Part shown: positions 45,516-49,153 of the stretch, in pieces
Layout: every line of letters starts with the position of its first letter
Numbering within the stretch: the first letter of the stretch is position 1
Assembly (NCBI RefSeq): GCF_009914755.1
Contig: NC_060925.1
DNA length: 64,000 bases
DNA from: the human T2T-CHM13v2.0 reference genome, Homo sapiens
Strand: one strand, 5' to 3'
Made by a program: the position numbers and the translations under genes
Notes under the pieces: generated by a model
What the model saw: the letters and a program-made list of their open reading frames with translations, nothing else
The model's database searches: none
What the model was told of the DNA's origin: nothing

Positions 45516-48500
45516 CTTTTTTTTTTTTTTTTTTTTTTGAGACAGAGTCTCCCTCTATTGCCCAGGCTGGAGTGCAGTGGTGCAATCTTGGCTCACTGCA
45601 ACCTCCACCTCCCAGGCTCAAGCGATTCTTGTGCCTCAGCCTCCTGAGTAGTTGGGATTACAGTCATGCACCACCATGCCTGGCTAATTTTTCTATTTTT
45701 AGTAGAGACAGAGTTTCATCATGTTGGCCAGGCTGGTCTCAAACTCTTGACTTCAAGTGATCCACCCGCCTCAGCCTCCCAAAGTGCTGGGATTACAGGC
45801 ATAAGCCACTGCACCTGGTTTTTGTTTGTTTGTTTGTTTGTTTGTTTGTTTGTTTTCTGAGACAGGGTTTCACTCTATCACCCAGGCTGGAGTGATATGA
45901 TCATGGCTCACTGCAGCCTTGACCTCCCAAGCTCAGGTGATCCTCCTACCTCAGCCTCCCAAGTAGCTGGGACCAAAGGTGTATGCCACCATGCCAAGCT
46001 AATTTTTTTGTATTTTTTGTAGAAACAGGATTTTCAACCTTGCCCAGGCTGGTCTTGAACTTCTGAGCTCAAGTGATCCACCTGCCTCGGCTTCCAAAGT
46101 GCTGGGATTACAGGCGTGAGCCCCCGTGCCCAGTCAAAAGTGACTGACCTTTTAGTTGTTTTATTAGTGTTTTAAAATTCTGTCCAGACAACACACCTCC
46201 GTATTGTTTGCACCCAGAATGGGCTGCTTCTACTGCCTTTTAACATGTCATTCCTTTCTTGGAAAAAGTGGTTCTTAAAGTATAGTCCCCAGACCAGCTG
46301 TTTCCACATCACCTGGGAACTTGTTAGAAGCGAGCATTCTTGGCTTCACTCAAGACTGACTGAATCAGCAACCCTGGAAGTAGTGCTTAGCAACCTGTGT
46401 TGTAACAAGCCCTCCAATGATTCTGATGCAGTTTCATATTTTAGGACCACTATCTTAGAATATGGAACCTGCCAGACCTAAGACACTAGAGTTTAGGGCA
46501 CTGGTAAATGCAGCCCTATGAAGTTGTGGTGTAAGGCAGAAAAACAGCCCTAGATTTTGGCAGACTTGGACATCTGTCCCTCCTGCTATCAGCGAAGAAA
46601 AGTGTCACTGAGTGGCAGATAGAATGTTTTAGCTTCTAGTCCCTCAAACAGTCTCCATGATACAAACACTGACTCAGTTAAGAATCCAGGAAGACTCTTG
46701 GAGACTGCGGTTGCTAAGAGTGACGAACTTGAACTGGGTTTGTTCTTTTCTTTGGGAATCCTGCAGCTGTGCGGCATGTAGCACCTGTGCCACCACACTC
46801 ACGCTCACTGCTCCTCCTTGTGCTGTTGCTCTGTATAAATACACCTCCGATGTTGGCAGCCCACGGCCTGTGATTCAGCCTCTGTAGTGGAGCCCAGGCA
46901 CCCAATGTGCTAAGAATAGAATTTTCCATTTCAACTTTATTTGCAAGAAGGTTTTCTGTATTTCATTCATCAGGTATTAAAAGTCTACTAAATACCAAGG
47001 AATTGTGCAGTGGTATGGGATTACAGTGGTAAGCAAACTGACATGGTCCCACTTTCAAAATGCTCTTTCTCTGGTTGGAGAGAAGGGGTTTTAAAAAGTA
47101 GATGCGTCCTCTAGTTTTGAATATTTTAAAAAATGTAAATGCAGCCAGGCACTGTGGCTTATGCTATGCCTGTAATCCCAGCACTCTGGGAGGCTGAGGT
47201 GGGAGGATCGCTTGAGCCCGGGAGTTTGAGACCAGCCTGGGCAATGTGGCAAAACCCCATCTCTACAAAAAAATAGAAAAATTAGCCAGGTGTGATGGTG
47301 CACGCTAGTCAGTAGTCCCAGCTACTCGGGAGGCTGAGGCAGGAGGTTGAGTCCAGGAGGTTGAGGCTTGAGGCTGCTGCTGTGAGCCGTGATCACACCA
47401 CTGCACTCCAGCCTGGGTAACAGAGTGAGACTCTGTCTCAAAAAAATAAAAAGAAAATGCAAATACAAATTGTGCTAAGTGTGACTATGATGTCTAAATG
47501 CTCCCCTCAGAAATACAGGAGAATGATGCTTCCCACACTCCTATTCATTTCACCTACTTAAAGCTTTCTAAAGCGATTTCCAAACCTTAATGCCACATGA
47601 AAAGATACGAAGCCTTTCTGCTGCCTTCAGGGACCTACTTCTAGACTGGAGCTCATCACTGACATCATATGCTAATGTTTCTAGAGCATTTAATGAAAGA
47701 GGCATTATGGCATATAATAATTATAACTGTTTTGGTATTTACACCTTTTGATCCAGTCACTTCTGGGCATCCCTCCAAAGGGGATAATGTGGTCCTTAGA
47801 AAAAAGCTGTACTGCTAAAGATAGTTACTGGAGCTTTATATATTCAATCAACAAATTAAATACTCAGTTATTACTTTGCTAATGTGAGTAAATTGCTTGA
47901 CCTCCCTGGGTGGCCTGGGTAAAATGGGGAGATAATCTCTATCTCAAGTTTGTGACAACTAAATGTCTGTGGAAATATCTCCCTAGCACTAGGCTCAACG
48001 AAGAGTAGGTGTGCTCTGGATGGGCTCTTTTCACCTTCCCTTTCTAATTATGTTGCATGTTATTATACATATGATGAGAATCTATGCAGTTTTTCTGTTT
48101 GTTTGGATGTTTTTTTGAGATGCAGTCTTACTCTATCACCCAGGCTGGAGTGCAGTAGTGCCATCTTGGCTTACTGCAACCTCTGGCTCCCGAGTTCAAG
48201 TGATTCTCCCGCCCCAGCCTCCCGAGTAGCTGGGACTACACGTGCACACCACCACGTCCAGCTAATTTTCGTGTTTTTAGTAGAGACAGAGGTTCACCAT
48301 GTTGGCCAGGCTGGTCTTGAACTCCTGACCCCAGGCAATCCGCCCACCTCGGCCTCCCAAATTGCTTGGATTATAGGTGTGAGCCACCACACTCAGCTTC
48401 ATAGTTAGTTTTTTGAGTCAGAATTTCACTCTGCCACCCAGACTGGAGTGCGGTGGTACAATTTCGGCTCACTGCAACCTCCGCCTCCTGAGTTAAAGTG

Positions 48501-48692
48501 ATTCTCCTGCCTCAGCCTCCTGAGTAGCTGAAGCTACAGACAGACACCACCACACCTGGCTAATTTTTGTGTTTTTAGTAGAGGCAGGGTTTTGCCATAT
48601 TGGCCAGGCTGGTCTCACACTCCTGAGCTCAAGAAATTCACCCGCCTCAGTCTTCCAAAGTGCTGGAATTACAGGCGTGAGGCACTGAGCGC
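45516..48692. mobile_element. Alus (45516-45818 and 45820-46133 antisense; 47144-47455 sense; 48110-48397 and 48410-48692 antisense) and MER5A (46267-46452)
   Basis: Alu bodies; MER5A GTGGTTCTTAAAG...GATTCTGATGCA...GACCACT. Confidence 0.88.
46755..46887 (+). pseudogene. PABPC4-like pseudo-exon (linker region)
   Basis: Translates with one frameshift as GNPAAVRHVAP..A..APPCAVALYKYTSDVGSPRPVIQPL*, against recalled PABPC4 [39 protein letters not shown]. Pyrimidine tract upstream; splice sites decayed. Confidence 0.8.
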
Positions 48693-48894
48693 GATGGAGA
48701 ATCTATACAGTTTTATATCACCACCACTCCCCTCAAAATGCGCTGAATTTGGTCAAAAACCGTTACTTCTCCCCTTCGCCTGGATTCTGAATGGTAGCAT
48801 TCAGGTGTCGAGTGGTTGGAGTGTCCTAACTTTGACCACCATCGAGTGCTGTCCTTTCCTTGGGTGCTAACCCACTGCTTCTCCTGGTTCCCAG

Positions 48895-48987
48895 GCACCC
48901 CAGCCTGCTGTCCATGTGCAGGCCAGGAACCCCTGACTGCCTCCATGCTGGCGGCAGCACTTTCCCAAGAACAGAAGCAGGTGCTGA
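48895..48987 (+). pseudogene. PABPC4-like pseudo-exon (start of the MLLE/PABC domain)
   Basis: APQPAVHVQ(1-nt deletion)GQEPLTASMLAAALSQEQKQVL; CTAAC branch point, pyrimidine tract, cccag| acceptor and |gtgagt donor all intact. Confidence 0.92.
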
Positions 48988-49098
48988 GTGAGTGACCCAC
49001 GCGCCTACGAAAGAAGAGAGGGCCAGAAGCTGGTGCTGACGCAGACACCAAGGTTACTGAGATTCCGTTTGGTTTTTTATGAACTATCTTCCCCACAG

Positions 49099-49153
49099 GA
49101 GACATTTGTTCCTCCTTATCCAAACAATGCATTCAAACTTGGCTGTAAAGATT
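49099..49153 (+). pseudogene. PABPC4-like pseudo-exon (MLLE domain), 3'-truncated at a MER21 LTR
   Basis: ccacag| then (E)HLFLLIQTMHSNLAVKI, against PABPC4 ERLFPLIQTMHSNLAGKI; follows a 111-nt GT-AG intron (48988-49098). Confidence 0.9.

What the first reader, a model, noticed from the sequence alone, without database searches (positions are those of the whole stretch)
46755..49153. Fossil of an intron-containing PABPC4 duplicate directly upstream of PPIE
Seen: three + strand segments, in the correct order, encode consecutive pieces of a cytoplasmic poly(A)-binding protein C-terminus. They are 46755-46887 (...AVALYKYTSDVGSPRPVIQPL*), 48895-48987 (APQPAVHVQ/GQEPLTASMLAAALSQEQKQVL) and 49099-49153 (HLFLLIQTMHSNLAVKI). 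They are separated by introns with splice signals, so this is a DNA-level duplicate rather than a retrocopy. Each piece has a frameshift or stop. Known, from memory: IQTMHSNLAGKI and an exon starting APQPAVHVQ are PABPC4 features (PABPC1 has IQAMHPTLAGKI and splices before GQEPL). PABPC4, the PPIEL pseudogene and BMP8A lie nearby in mirror arrangement to PPIE-BMP8B. Inference: the inverted BMP8A/BMP8B duplication also copied at least the PABPC4 3' half, followed by reciprocal loss. One arm kept PABPC4 and lost PPIE; this arm kept PPIE and lost PABPC4. The relic would mark how far the duplication extended. I do not recall it being annotated.
Basis: partly seen in the sequence, partly recalled or inferred. 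Interest (0 to 1): 0.85.

Follow-up and report, generated by a model that had tools for sequence, protein, structure and literature searches.

The report
Decayed PABPC4 tail upstream of PPIE
A broken, intron-containing copy of the last few exons of the poly(A)-binding protein gene PABPC4 lies just upstream of PPIE and marks the inner edge of an ancient mirror-image duplication on human chromosome 1.

Summary
Window 46711-50127 (+) holds a decayed DNA-level copy of the 3' end of PABPC4. It has counterparts of three consecutive exons: 46755-46887, 48895-48987 and 49099-49152. They come with matching intron sequence and match chr1:39432164-39429710 on the opposite strand (blastn E 2e-26 and 4e-74). 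Among the paralogues PABPC4 is the closest, one intron aligns only to PABPC4, and a tree puts the relic beside PABPC4 and its retrocopies. All three exon pieces are disabled. The match is the first block of a 24-block inverted collinear chain. The chain runs on through PPIE/PPIEL into the BMP8B/BMP8A core. Noncoding divergence (K80 0.37) fits the pre-eutherian age published for the BMP8A/B duplication. No PABPC4 exon lies upstream of 46711 anywhere in the window, so only about 92 codons of the C-terminal end are represented. The copy was probably incomplete from the start, not a whole gene lost later. That would make the PPIE-BMP8B arm the daughter copy. I found no paper that describes this relic. 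It is an ordinary kind of object, an unprocessed pseudogene fragment at a duplication edge, and a useful landmark.

The parts
46711..46754 (+). Remnant of the 3' end of the PABPC4 intron that precedes exon -4. Detectable homology begins here, so this is the inner edge of the duplicated arm.
   Evidence: Aligns to chr1:39432164-39432120 on the minus strand, 44 sites, p=0.295. Local score 18 against a shuffle maximum of 14, with 0 of 200 shuffles reaching it. Nothing upstream aligns.
46755..46887 (+). Relic of PABPC4 exon -4 (fifth exon from the end, Ala/Pro-rich linker ending ...YKY...IQPLQ). It has a 5-nt length difference, its last codon CAG is now TAG, and its acceptor AG and donor GT are both lost.
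   Evidence: The parent exon is chr1:39432119-39431992, as defined by retrocopy junctions. Identity is 75% over the 3' 80 nt and p=0.352 over all 128 sites.
46888..46989 (+). 5' part of the intron between exons -4 and -3.
   Evidence: Aligns to chr1:39431991-39431889, p=0.392.
47718..47781 (+). Middle block of the same intron. The relic's intron is lengthened by three Alu-like insertions at about 47140-47450 and 48086-48700.
   Evidence: Aligns to chr1:39431245-39431182 at 73.4%, E 3e-6. Also picked up by tblastn at 47699-47812. The Alu-like sequence is read and from the repeat mask in the hub's table.
48835..48894 (+). 3' end of the intron before exon -3, with the acceptor AG kept.
   Evidence: 59 sites, 7 transitions, 0 transversions, p=0.119. 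Alignment shown.
48895..48987 (+). Relic of PABPC4 exon -3 (APQPAVHVQ GQEPLTASMLAA...QKQ.L). A 1-nt deletion shifts the frame. Acceptor AG and donor GT are kept.
   Evidence: 88.2% identical to PABPC4 chr1:39430794-39430701, against 76.7% to PABPC1, 75.0% to PABPC3 and 73.5% to PABPC1L. Alignment. PDB hit.
48988..49098 (+). Intron between exons -3 and -2.
   Evidence: Aligns only to the PABPC4 intron among the 12 paralogue and retrocopy loci tested, 69.8% over 116 columns. p=0.252.
49099..49152 (+). Relic of the first 54 nt of PABPC4 exon -2, the start of the MLLE/PABC domain (..LF.LIQTMHSNLA.KI). It has a 1-nt deletion after GAG. The remaining ~78 nt of the exon are absent.
   Evidence: At the call's threshold only PABPC4 and its three retrocopies match this piece (82-87.5%).
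49157..49631 (.). Old dispersed repeat. It sits where about 497 bp of PABPC4 would be expected: the rest of exon -2, the next intron, and exon -1 with the stop codon (chr1:39430526-39430030).
   Evidence: The 39 listed non-self matches on many chromosomes are 70-77% identical, out of 1940 first-look candidates. No PABPC4 homology is found in 49153-49724. The repeat family was not named because no repeat library was available.
49725..50127 (+). Two blocks (49725-49826 and 49879-50127) homologous to the last intron of PABPC4, which lies between the stop-codon exon and the 3'-UTR exon.
   Evidence: Align to chr1:39430029-39429941 (69.6%) and 39429939-39429710 (68.1%). The intron is defined by retrocopy junctions at 39430062 and 39429500. 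No counterpart of the final UTR exon (39429500-39429194) was found between 50127 and 52292.
52292..52362 (+). Context: the PPIE exon 1 region, the next collinear block, homologous to the start of the PPIEL arm.
   Evidence: Aligns to chr1:39428090-39428021 at 72.2%, E 2e-5. The chain then covers PPIE exons 2-8.

Best explanation
Window 46711-50127 is a non-functional, unprocessed (intron-containing) pseudogene fragment of PABPC4. It is the innermost stretch of the right arm of the ancient inverted duplication whose arms are BMP8A-PPIEL-PABPC4 (left) and PPIE-BMP8B (right).

Shown:
- Exon and intron homology to the PABPC4 3' end, in inverted orientation.
- Collinearity continuing into PPIE/PPIEL and the BMP8 core.
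- Disabling lesions in every retained exon.
- No PABPC4 exon further upstream in the window.

Inferred:
- The copy arose in the same event as the BMP8A/B duplication, before the eutherian radiation, and has drifted neutrally since.
- It most likely never held more than the last five or six exons, because the duplication breakpoint fell in the short intron before exon -4 (about 0.6 for this sub-claim).
- If so, the arm with the intact PABPC4 is the parent and the PPIE-BMP8B arm is the daughter. The working PPIE would then be the copy, and PPIEL the decayed original.

No present function is proposed. It works as a landmark, not as a gene.
For: - The peptides are present.
- A whole-genome search puts the best non-self match of 48835-49152 at chr1:39430853-39430527 on the minus strand, 80% identical across exon, intron and exon.
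- That locus encodes a complete four-RRM plus MLLE poly(A)-binding protein carrying IQTMHSNLAGKI.
- Of 8516 HSPs between the two arms, 31 are low-copy. Of these, 24 form one inverted collinear chain from 46711 to about 107500. The 25th member of the computed chain, 38072-38253, is a genome-wide repeat and was dropped.
- Paralogue test: exon -3 is 88.2% identical to PABPC4, 76.7% to PABPC1, 75.0% to PABPC3 and 73.5% to PABPC1L. The intron matches PABPC4 only.
- ML tree on 149 nt with 200 bootstraps: the relic is sister to PABPC4 plus three PABPC4 retrocopies (81%), inside a PABPC4 clade (78%).
- Of 20 substitutions separating the relic from PABPC4 in exons -3 and -2, 10 map to the relic, 6 to the PABPC4 lineage and 4 are ambiguous. 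The split is therefore old.
- K80 is 0.367 over 697 noncoding sites and 0.291 over 275 exonic sites. This fits the published pre-eutherian date for BMP8A/B (PMC2720389, passages read).
- Mouse and cow show the same mirror gene order (passages in PMC5122204 and bioRxiv 10.1101/2021.03.01.432277).
- Upstream absence: tblastn of 388 open frames from the PABPC4 locus finds no exon before 46834. Local alignments of seven upstream PABPC4 pieces against 44000-46760 do not stand out from shuffles.
Against: - Only human sequence could be examined, so the age and the 'truncated at birth' reading rest on divergence and on the literature, not on orthologous relics in other mammals.
- The upstream boundary could equally come from a later deletion. 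Two old repeats and an Alu lie just upstream (46267-46463; 45508-46134, hub mask), which shows that the region has been remodelled.
- Alignable noncoding blocks are a biased, better-preserved sample, so K80 underestimates the true divergence.
- The tree rests on 149 nt, with bootstraps of 78-81%.
- The name PABPC4 for the chr1:39.43 Mb locus rests on map position (recalled) and on gene lists in papers. No annotation was supplied for that locus.
- Whether GENCODE or Ensembl already list this relic could not be checked.
Confidence: 0.88

Rival explanations
1. The duplication copied a complete PABPC4, or at least its 3' half, which may once have worked. Later deletions removed the 5' part, so each arm lost a different gene (reciprocal loss).
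For: PPIE and PPIEL do show one-sided loss. The relic has suffered at least one later internal loss: about 497 bp are replaced at 49153-49724. The sequence just upstream of 46711 contains inserted repeats. Deletions are therefore plausible.
Against: No trace of any upstream exon exists anywhere in the 64-kb window, although RRM exons are the best-conserved part of the parent. Homology stops abruptly inside a roughly 124-nt intron. Exon divergence (p 0.12-0.35) is what neutral decay since the duplication would give. No period of constraint is detectable, though 275 sites are too few to test this properly.
Confidence: 0.3
2. A separate, small duplication of the PABPC4 3' end landed upstream of PPIE by coincidence and is unrelated to the BMP8A/B event.
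For: The relic blocks (66-80% identity) are much more diverged than the BMP8 core (96.6%).
Against: Orientation and order are continuous with the neighbouring PPIE/PPIEL blocks. Those blocks have the same low identity, 63-70% at 53510-57411. The spacing from the end of PABPC4 to the start of PPIEL (about 1.6 kb) mirrors the spacing from the relic to PPIE (about 2.2 kb, including two Alus). Published work attributes the high identity of the core to gene conversion (PMC2720389).
Confidence: 0.04
3. A processed pseudogene (retrocopy) of a PABPC mRNA.
For: Several PABPC retrocopies exist in the genome, including three derived from PABPC4, on chr12, chr15 and chr1:67.4 Mb.
Against: The exon pieces are separated by sequence homologous to PABPC4 introns. 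The true retrocopies join the same exons directly.
Confidence: 0.01
4. A relic of another paralogue (PABPC1, PABPC1L or PABPC3), or a chance match in low-complexity sequence.
For: The only PDB matches are PABPC1 and PABPC3 chains. That is because the PDB returned no PABPC4 chain.
Against: Identity ranking, intron homology and the tree all favour PABPC4. E-values are 2e-26 and 4e-74.
Confidence: 0.01

Closest known systems
The BMP8A/BMP8B inverted duplication on 1p34 (Carson & Scherer 2009, PMC2720389; earlier Onishi et al. 2004 on Oxct2a/b, cited there but not held in the library)
   Same: Same event and same orientation. The relic lies on the same inverted collinear chain as the 96.6%-identical, 16.6-kb block inside BMP8B. 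Its divergence fits their pre-eutherian date.
   Different: The passages I read deal with the BMP8 genes, their introns and 10 kb of flanks. A term search of that paper's main text finds 0 occurrences of PPIE and 0 of PABPC4. The relic lies about 24 kb beyond BMP8B in the old, unconverted part of the arm, at 59-88% identity per block. The usual threshold for a segmental duplication (recalled: at least 90% identity over at least 1 kb) would not include it.
PPIEL, the PPIE-like pseudogene on the opposite arm
   Same: Also an unprocessed pseudogene left by the same duplication. It is collinear with PPIE exons 1-8 at 63-81% identity.
   Different: PPIEL is a named, transcribed locus with a maternally methylated DMR (PMC3975056, passages), and it covers a whole gene. 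The PABPC4 relic is a fragment and has no row in the supplied RefSeq table.
Processed PABPC pseudogenes, for example the PABPC4-derived copies at chr12:59.79 Mb, chr15:91.80 Mb and chr1:67.44 Mb
   Same: They derive from the same parent gene and cover the same C-terminal exons.
   Different: They are intronless and branch with PABPC4 after the relic split off. The relic keeps introns and sits in the parent's mirrored genomic context.

Membership tests
Unprocessed (duplicated) pseudogene | Homology to consecutive exons of a parent gene, in the same order and on one strand | tested here: met
   Counterparts of exons -4, -3 and -2 lie in order on the + strand.
Unprocessed (duplicated) pseudogene | Introns retained and homologous to the parent's introns, with no direct exon-exon joins | tested here: met
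   Intron blocks align to PABPC4 introns. Retrocopies of the same gene join these exons directly.
Unprocessed (duplicated) pseudogene | Disabling lesions: frameshifts, stops, lost splice sites or missing exons | tested here: met
   Lesions are found in all three exon pieces. The stop-codon exon and all upstream exons are absent.
Unprocessed (duplicated) pseudogene | Lies in a duplicated segment collinear with the parent's flanks | tested here: met
   24-block inverted chain from 46711 to about 107500.
Derived from PABPC4 and not from another PABPC paralogue | Highest identity to PABPC4, tree placement with PABPC4, and homology in PABPC4-specific introns | tested here: met
   Exons -3 plus -2 are 84.5% identical to PABPC4, 68.2% to PABPC1, 64.9% to PABPC3 and 64.9% to PABPC1L. 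Tree support is 78% and 81%. The intron matches PABPC4 only.
   The homologous PABPC1 exon starts at the same place. The border is shared by the paralogues, so it is uninformative. This does not weaken the PABPC4 assignment.
Part of the eutherian BMP8A/B duplication event | Relic present upstream of PPIE in other eutherian orders and absent in marsupials | not testable with these tools
   No other mammalian genome was available. Only gene orders from papers could be used (mouse, cow, chicken and turtle).
Segmental duplication in the database sense (threshold recalled: at least 1 kb at 90% identity or more) | At least 90% identity over at least 1 kb | tested here: not met
   The relic blocks are 59-88% identical. 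Only the part at 73537-99632 reaches 92-97%.

The most novel reading that the evidence does not exclude
The relic fixes the inner breakpoint of the pre-eutherian inverted duplication inside PABPC4, in the intron before the fifth exon from the end. That polarises the event. The MACF1-BMP8A-PPIEL-PABPC4 arm is the original, and the PPIE-BMP8B arm between HPCAL4 and TRIT1 is the copy. The essential spliceosomal cyclophilin PPIE of placental mammals would then be expressed from the daughter copy. The parental PPIE would have decayed into PPIEL, which in humans carries a maternally methylated imprinted DMR. This would be a case of parent-to-daughter gene replacement that can be dated and tested across mammals.
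Probability: 0.55. Interest if true: 0.45.

Novelty: new member of a known kind. Interest (0 to 1): 0.35.

Why it matters
The relic extends the known BMP8A/B duplication by tens of kilobases, into sequence too diverged for standard segmental-duplication maps. It gives that duplication a base-level inner boundary at window 46711, matching chr1:39432164. If the boundary is the original breakpoint, the relic shows which arm is parental. The relic is also a stretch that has probably evolved neutrally since a datable event, beside a constrained parent, which can help calibrate rates. In practice it is an unannotated PABPC4-like sequence that could attract mis-mapped reads or be mistaken for an exon upstream of PPIE.

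Tried and rejected
- Searched the whole window for further PABPC4 exons with tblastn, using 388 open frames from the PABPC4 locus. Only Alu-derived matches turned up, plus a weak RRM-to-RRM match to PPIE exon 2.
- Ran blastn with word size 7 on 42000-53000. Hits at 42246-42371 and 45519-46136 are Alu-to-Alu.
- Local alignments of seven upstream PABPC4 pieces against 44000-46760, with 200 shuffles each. None stands out. The best (score 15, reached by 1 of 200 shuffles) lies at 46201-46223, which is off the diagonal, so I treat it as chance.
- The formally collinear hit 38072-38253 to chr1:39466224-39466055 could have meant that the duplication once covered all of PABPC4. It is a genome-wide old repeat with 2403 first-look candidates, so I rejected it.
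- No counterpart was found for the rest of exon -2, for exon -1 or for the final UTR exon.
I used the 3-kb loci already held. As a result exon -4 could be compared only with PABPC4-type sequences.
- Onishi et al. 2004 is not held. It may describe the extent of the duplicated segment.
- Literature searches for a PABPC4 pseudogene, or for PPIEL/PPIE/PABPC4 together with the BMP8 duplication, found no description of this relic. One search was too broad to be informative.
- The dispersed repeats at 46267-46463 and 49157-49631 could not be named because no repeat library was available.
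Full report
**1. What was checked**

The window is T2T-CHM13 chr1:39556001-39620000. Frame 46741 reads ...AVALYKYTSDVGSPRPVIQPL*. 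Frame 48880 reads APQPAVHVQ, followed after a one-base shift by GQEPLTASMLAAALSQEQKQVL in frame 48882. Frame 49085 reads HLFLLIQTMHSNLAVKI. The middle piece alone hits the C-terminal (PABC/MLLE) domain of PABPC1 in the PDB at E 4e-5.

**2. The parent locus**

A DNA search of the window's own genome with 48700-49400 gave chr1:39430527-39430853 (minus strand) as the best non-self match. It is 80% identical over window 48835-49152, a span that covers exon, intron and exon. The same search found an intronless copy on chr12 and many copies of a dispersed repeat that matches 49157 onwards.

A search with Pfam PF00658 (MLLE) located the PABC-coding exons of the paralogues. The gene names below are my assignments, from chromosome position (recalled) and from sequence:
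- chr8: PABPC1
- chr13, an open 672-codon frame: PABPC3
- chr20: PABPC1L
- chr1:39430445-39430585: PABPC4
- several intronless copies

Translated comparison with the PABPC3 frame shows that the chr1:39.43-39.446 Mb locus encodes RRM exons, a linker and an MLLE domain with ...IQTMHSNLAGKI.... PABPC1 and PABPC3 have ...IQAMHPTLAGKI... at this position. No annotation was supplied for this locus. I call it PABPC4 from its position about 41 kb beyond HEYL (map recalled) and from gene lists that place PABPC4 between HEYL and BMP8A (PMC5122204 and PMC9928969, passages).

**3. Exon borders from independent evidence**

Three intronless copies turned out to derive from PABPC4: chr12:59.79 Mb, chr15:91.80 Mb and chr1:67.44 Mb. 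Their alignment to the locus gives the last six exons of the PABPC4 mRNA (refined):

| Exon | chr1 coordinates (minus strand) | Note |
|---|---|---|
| -5 | ...39432282-39432244 | |
| -4 | 39432119-39431992 | |
| -3 | 39430794-39430701 | |
| -2 | 39430581-39430450 | |
| -1 | 39430167-39430062 | carries the stop codon |
| last | 39429500-39429194 | 3' UTR |

**4. Anatomy of the relic**

| Window | What it matches in PABPC4 | Divergence and state |
|---|---|---|
| 46711-46754 | end of the intron before exon -4 | p 0.295 |
| 46755-46887 | exon -4 | p 0.352; 5-nt length difference; last codon CAG now TAG; acceptor AG and donor GT both lost |
| 46888-46989, 47718-47781 | pieces of the next intron | three Alu-like insertions account for the relic's longer intron (2007 versus 1197 bp) |
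| 48835-48894 | 3' end of that intron | p 0.119; acceptor kept |
| 48895-48987 | exon -3 | p 0.118; one base deleted; acceptor AG and donor GT kept |
| 48988-49098 | intron | p 0.252 |
| 49099-49152 | start of exon -2 | p 0.167; one base deleted; acceptor kept |

Homology then stops. Window 49153-49724 holds none of the roughly 497 bp expected, which would be the rest of exon -2, the following intron and exon -1. Instead, 49157-49631 is an old dispersed repeat. The 39 listed non-self matches are 70-77% identical, out of 1940 first-look candidates.

Homology resumes at 49725-49826 and 49879-50127, which match the last intron of PABPC4 at 68-70%. The final UTR exon has no detectable counterpart before the next collinear block at 52292-52362, which is the PPIE exon 1 region matching the start of the PPIEL arm.

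**5. Which paralogue**

- Exon -3 is 88.2% identical to PABPC4, 84.9% and 80.9% to two PABPC4 retrocopies, 76.7% to PABPC1, 75.0% to PABPC3 and 73.5% to PABPC1L.
- The intron between exons -3 and -2 matches PABPC4 only.
- At the threshold used, the exon -2 piece matches only PABPC4-type sequences.
- Over exons -3 plus -2 the identities are 84.5% (125 of 148) to PABPC4, 68.2% to PABPC1, 64.9% to PABPC3 and 64.9% to PABPC1L.
- An ML tree (149 columns, HKY+G, 200 bootstraps) puts the relic as sister to PABPC4 plus its three retrocopies (81%), inside a PABPC4 clade (78%).
- By parsimony with PABPC1 and PABPC1L as outgroups, 10 of the 20 substitutions between the relic and PABPC4 fall on the relic, 6 on the PABPC4 lineage and 4 are ambiguous. 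The relic therefore keeps ancestral states that PABPC4 and its retrocopies have lost, which means it split early.
That does not hold. The PABPC1 exon begins at the same place as the PABPC4 exon, so exon borders are shared and do not separate the paralogues.

**6. Context: the inverted duplication**

I compared the right arm (the window plus chr1:39620001-39670000, 114 kb) with the left arm (chr1:39340001-39470000, 130 kb) using sensitive blastn.
- This gave 8516 HSPs. Keeping those in low-copy sequence left 31.
- Of the 31, 29 are on the opposite strand, and 25 of those form one collinear chain.
- The first chain member, 38072-38253, is a genome-wide repeat, so I dropped it. That leaves 24 blocks.

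The chain starts at 46711 (matching 39432164) and then runs as follows:

| Right-arm coordinates | Content | Identity |
|---|---|---|
| 46711-50127 | the relic | 66-80% |
| 53510-57411 | PPIE exons 2-6 | 63-70% |
| 58257-62718 | PPIE exons 7-8 | 80-81% |
| 65591-73151 | rest of the arm before the BMP8B core | 74-82% |
| 73537-90130 | 16.6-kb block inside BMP8B | 96.6% |
| 90766-99632 | BMP8B | 92.4-92.5% |
| 99623-107500 | BMP8B and beyond | 71-86% |

The chain reaches the edge of the left arm that I had fetched, so I did not determine the outer boundary.

This mosaic matches published work. Carson & Scherer 2009 (PMC2720389, abstract and passages read) report the following:
- BMP8A and BMP8B are inverted and about 235 kb apart.
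- The duplication predates the eutherian radiation. They give 129-173 Mya, with a single BMP8 in opossum.
- Parts of the two genes are kept similar by ongoing gene conversion.

A term search of that paper's main text finds neither PPIE nor PABPC4.

**7. Age**

Noncoding blocks of the relic give K80 = 0.367 over 697 aligned sites, and exon pieces give 0.291 over 275. Roughly 0.18 substitutions per site per lineage is about what I recall for the human lineage since the human-mouse ancestor. Because only alignable pieces are counted, it is also a lower bound. This agrees with a pre-eutherian event.

The parts that are constrained in the parent (exon -3 and the adjoining acceptor region) differ by about 12%, which is about half the noncoding value. 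That is the pattern expected if only the relic lineage was free to change. The mouse gene order Trit1-Bmp8b-Oxct2b-Ppie-Hpcal4-Nt5c1a-Heyl-Pabpc4-Bmp8a-Oxct2a-Macf1 (PMC5122204, passage) shows the same mirror and the same retained copies. So do the cow flanking genes (bioRxiv 10.1101/2021.03.01.432277, passage).

**8. How far the copy reached**

No PABPC4 exon upstream of exon -4 is detectable anywhere in the window, on either strand. Sensitive blastn and local alignment with shuffle controls also find nothing. The positive controls are clear: exon -4 scores 41 and the 45-nt intron end scores 18, against shuffle maxima of 16 and 14. Just upstream lie about 250 bp of unique sequence, an old repeat (46267-46463) and an Alu.

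Homology therefore begins 44 nt before exon -4, inside a roughly 124-nt intron. Exon -5 would lie only about 80 nt further on and is absent. The simplest reading is that this is the original breakpoint and that the copy never held more than the last five or six exons. I put this at about 0.6. A later deletion of the 5' part cannot be excluded from human sequence alone (about 0.3).

**9. Consequence (inference)**

A truncated copy cannot be the parent of an intact gene. If the boundary is original, the left arm is ancestral and the PPIE-BMP8B arm is the daughter, inserted in inverted orientation beyond HPCAL4. The text of PMC9928969 (passage; figure not seen) points the same way. It lists Macf1, Ppie, Pabpc4, Heyl, Nt5c1a and Hpcal4 as the conserved neighbours of the single Bmp8 of chicken and turtle. 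The working PPIE would then be the daughter copy and PPIEL the decayed parental gene. PPIEL carries a maternally methylated DMR (PMC3975056, passages).

**10. Novelty**

I found no paper describing a PABPC4 pseudogene or PABPC4 sequence upstream of PPIE.
- Searches returned only gene lists and unrelated studies.
- ('PABPC4 pseudogene', 'PABPC4P', 'PABPC4P1', 'PABPC4-like pseudogene') returned one unrelated paper.
- One search was uninformative.

Onishi et al. 2004 is not held and may bear on the extent of the duplication. The RefSeq table supplied with the finding has no row here, and I could not consult GENCODE or the self-chain tracks. In kind this is an ordinary unprocessed pseudogene fragment at the edge of an old duplication. 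Its value is as a boundary and polarity marker.

**11. Verdict**

It overstated three others: '3' half', 'reciprocal loss' of a whole gene, and the recalled PABPC1 splice difference. Interest is modest.

Noticed in passing
L028 (chr12:59787388-59790585), L031 (chr15:91794326-91797511), L037 (chr1:67437227-67440406): Three intronless PABPC copies derive from PABPC4 and not from PABPC1. They join the last five or six PABPC4 exons directly and are 78-99% identical to them per exon. The chr1:67.4 Mb copy is much the most decayed. They also show that the PABPC4 mRNA has an intron after the stop-codon exon (39430062 to 39429500).
   Followed up: partly
window 58257-62718 compared with 53510-57411, plus right-arm coordinates 73537-99632 (beyond the window, L022-L025): Identity between the two arms is a mosaic: 63-70% over PPIE exons 2-6, about 80% over exons 7-8 including their introns, 96.6% over 16.6 kb inside BMP8B, and 92.5% further on. 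This looks like nested gene-conversion tracts that reach into the 3' half of PPIE/PPIEL, beyond the BMP8 genes discussed in PMC2720389.
   Followed up: partly
window 49157-49631: An old dispersed repeat of about 475 bp (listed copies 70-77% identical, 1940 first-look candidates) sits where the relic lacks the end of exon -2, an intron and the stop-codon exon. Its copy-to-copy divergence is similar to the divergence between the two arms, so the insertion may be about as old as the duplication. The family was not named.
   Followed up: partly
window 46267-46463 and 37966-38400: Two more old dispersed repeats (listed copies 67-82% identical). The second produced a spurious 'collinear' inverted hit to chr1:39466055-39466224, upstream of PABPC4.
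   Followed up: yes
window 53581-53682: PPIE exon 2 (its RRM) gives a weak tblastn match to an RRM exon of PABPC4 (32% over 34 residues, E 5e-4). This is shared domain ancestry and not part of the duplication.
   Followed up: no
L018/L017, chr1:39428090-39428021 compared with 39429194: On the left arm, the counterpart of PPIE exon 1 (the start of PPIEL) lies only about 1.1 kb beyond the aligned end of the PABPC4 3'-UTR exon. PABPC4 and the ancestral PPIE were therefore tightly packed tail to head, which explains why a duplication that took PPIE also clipped the PABPC4 tail.
   Followed up: no
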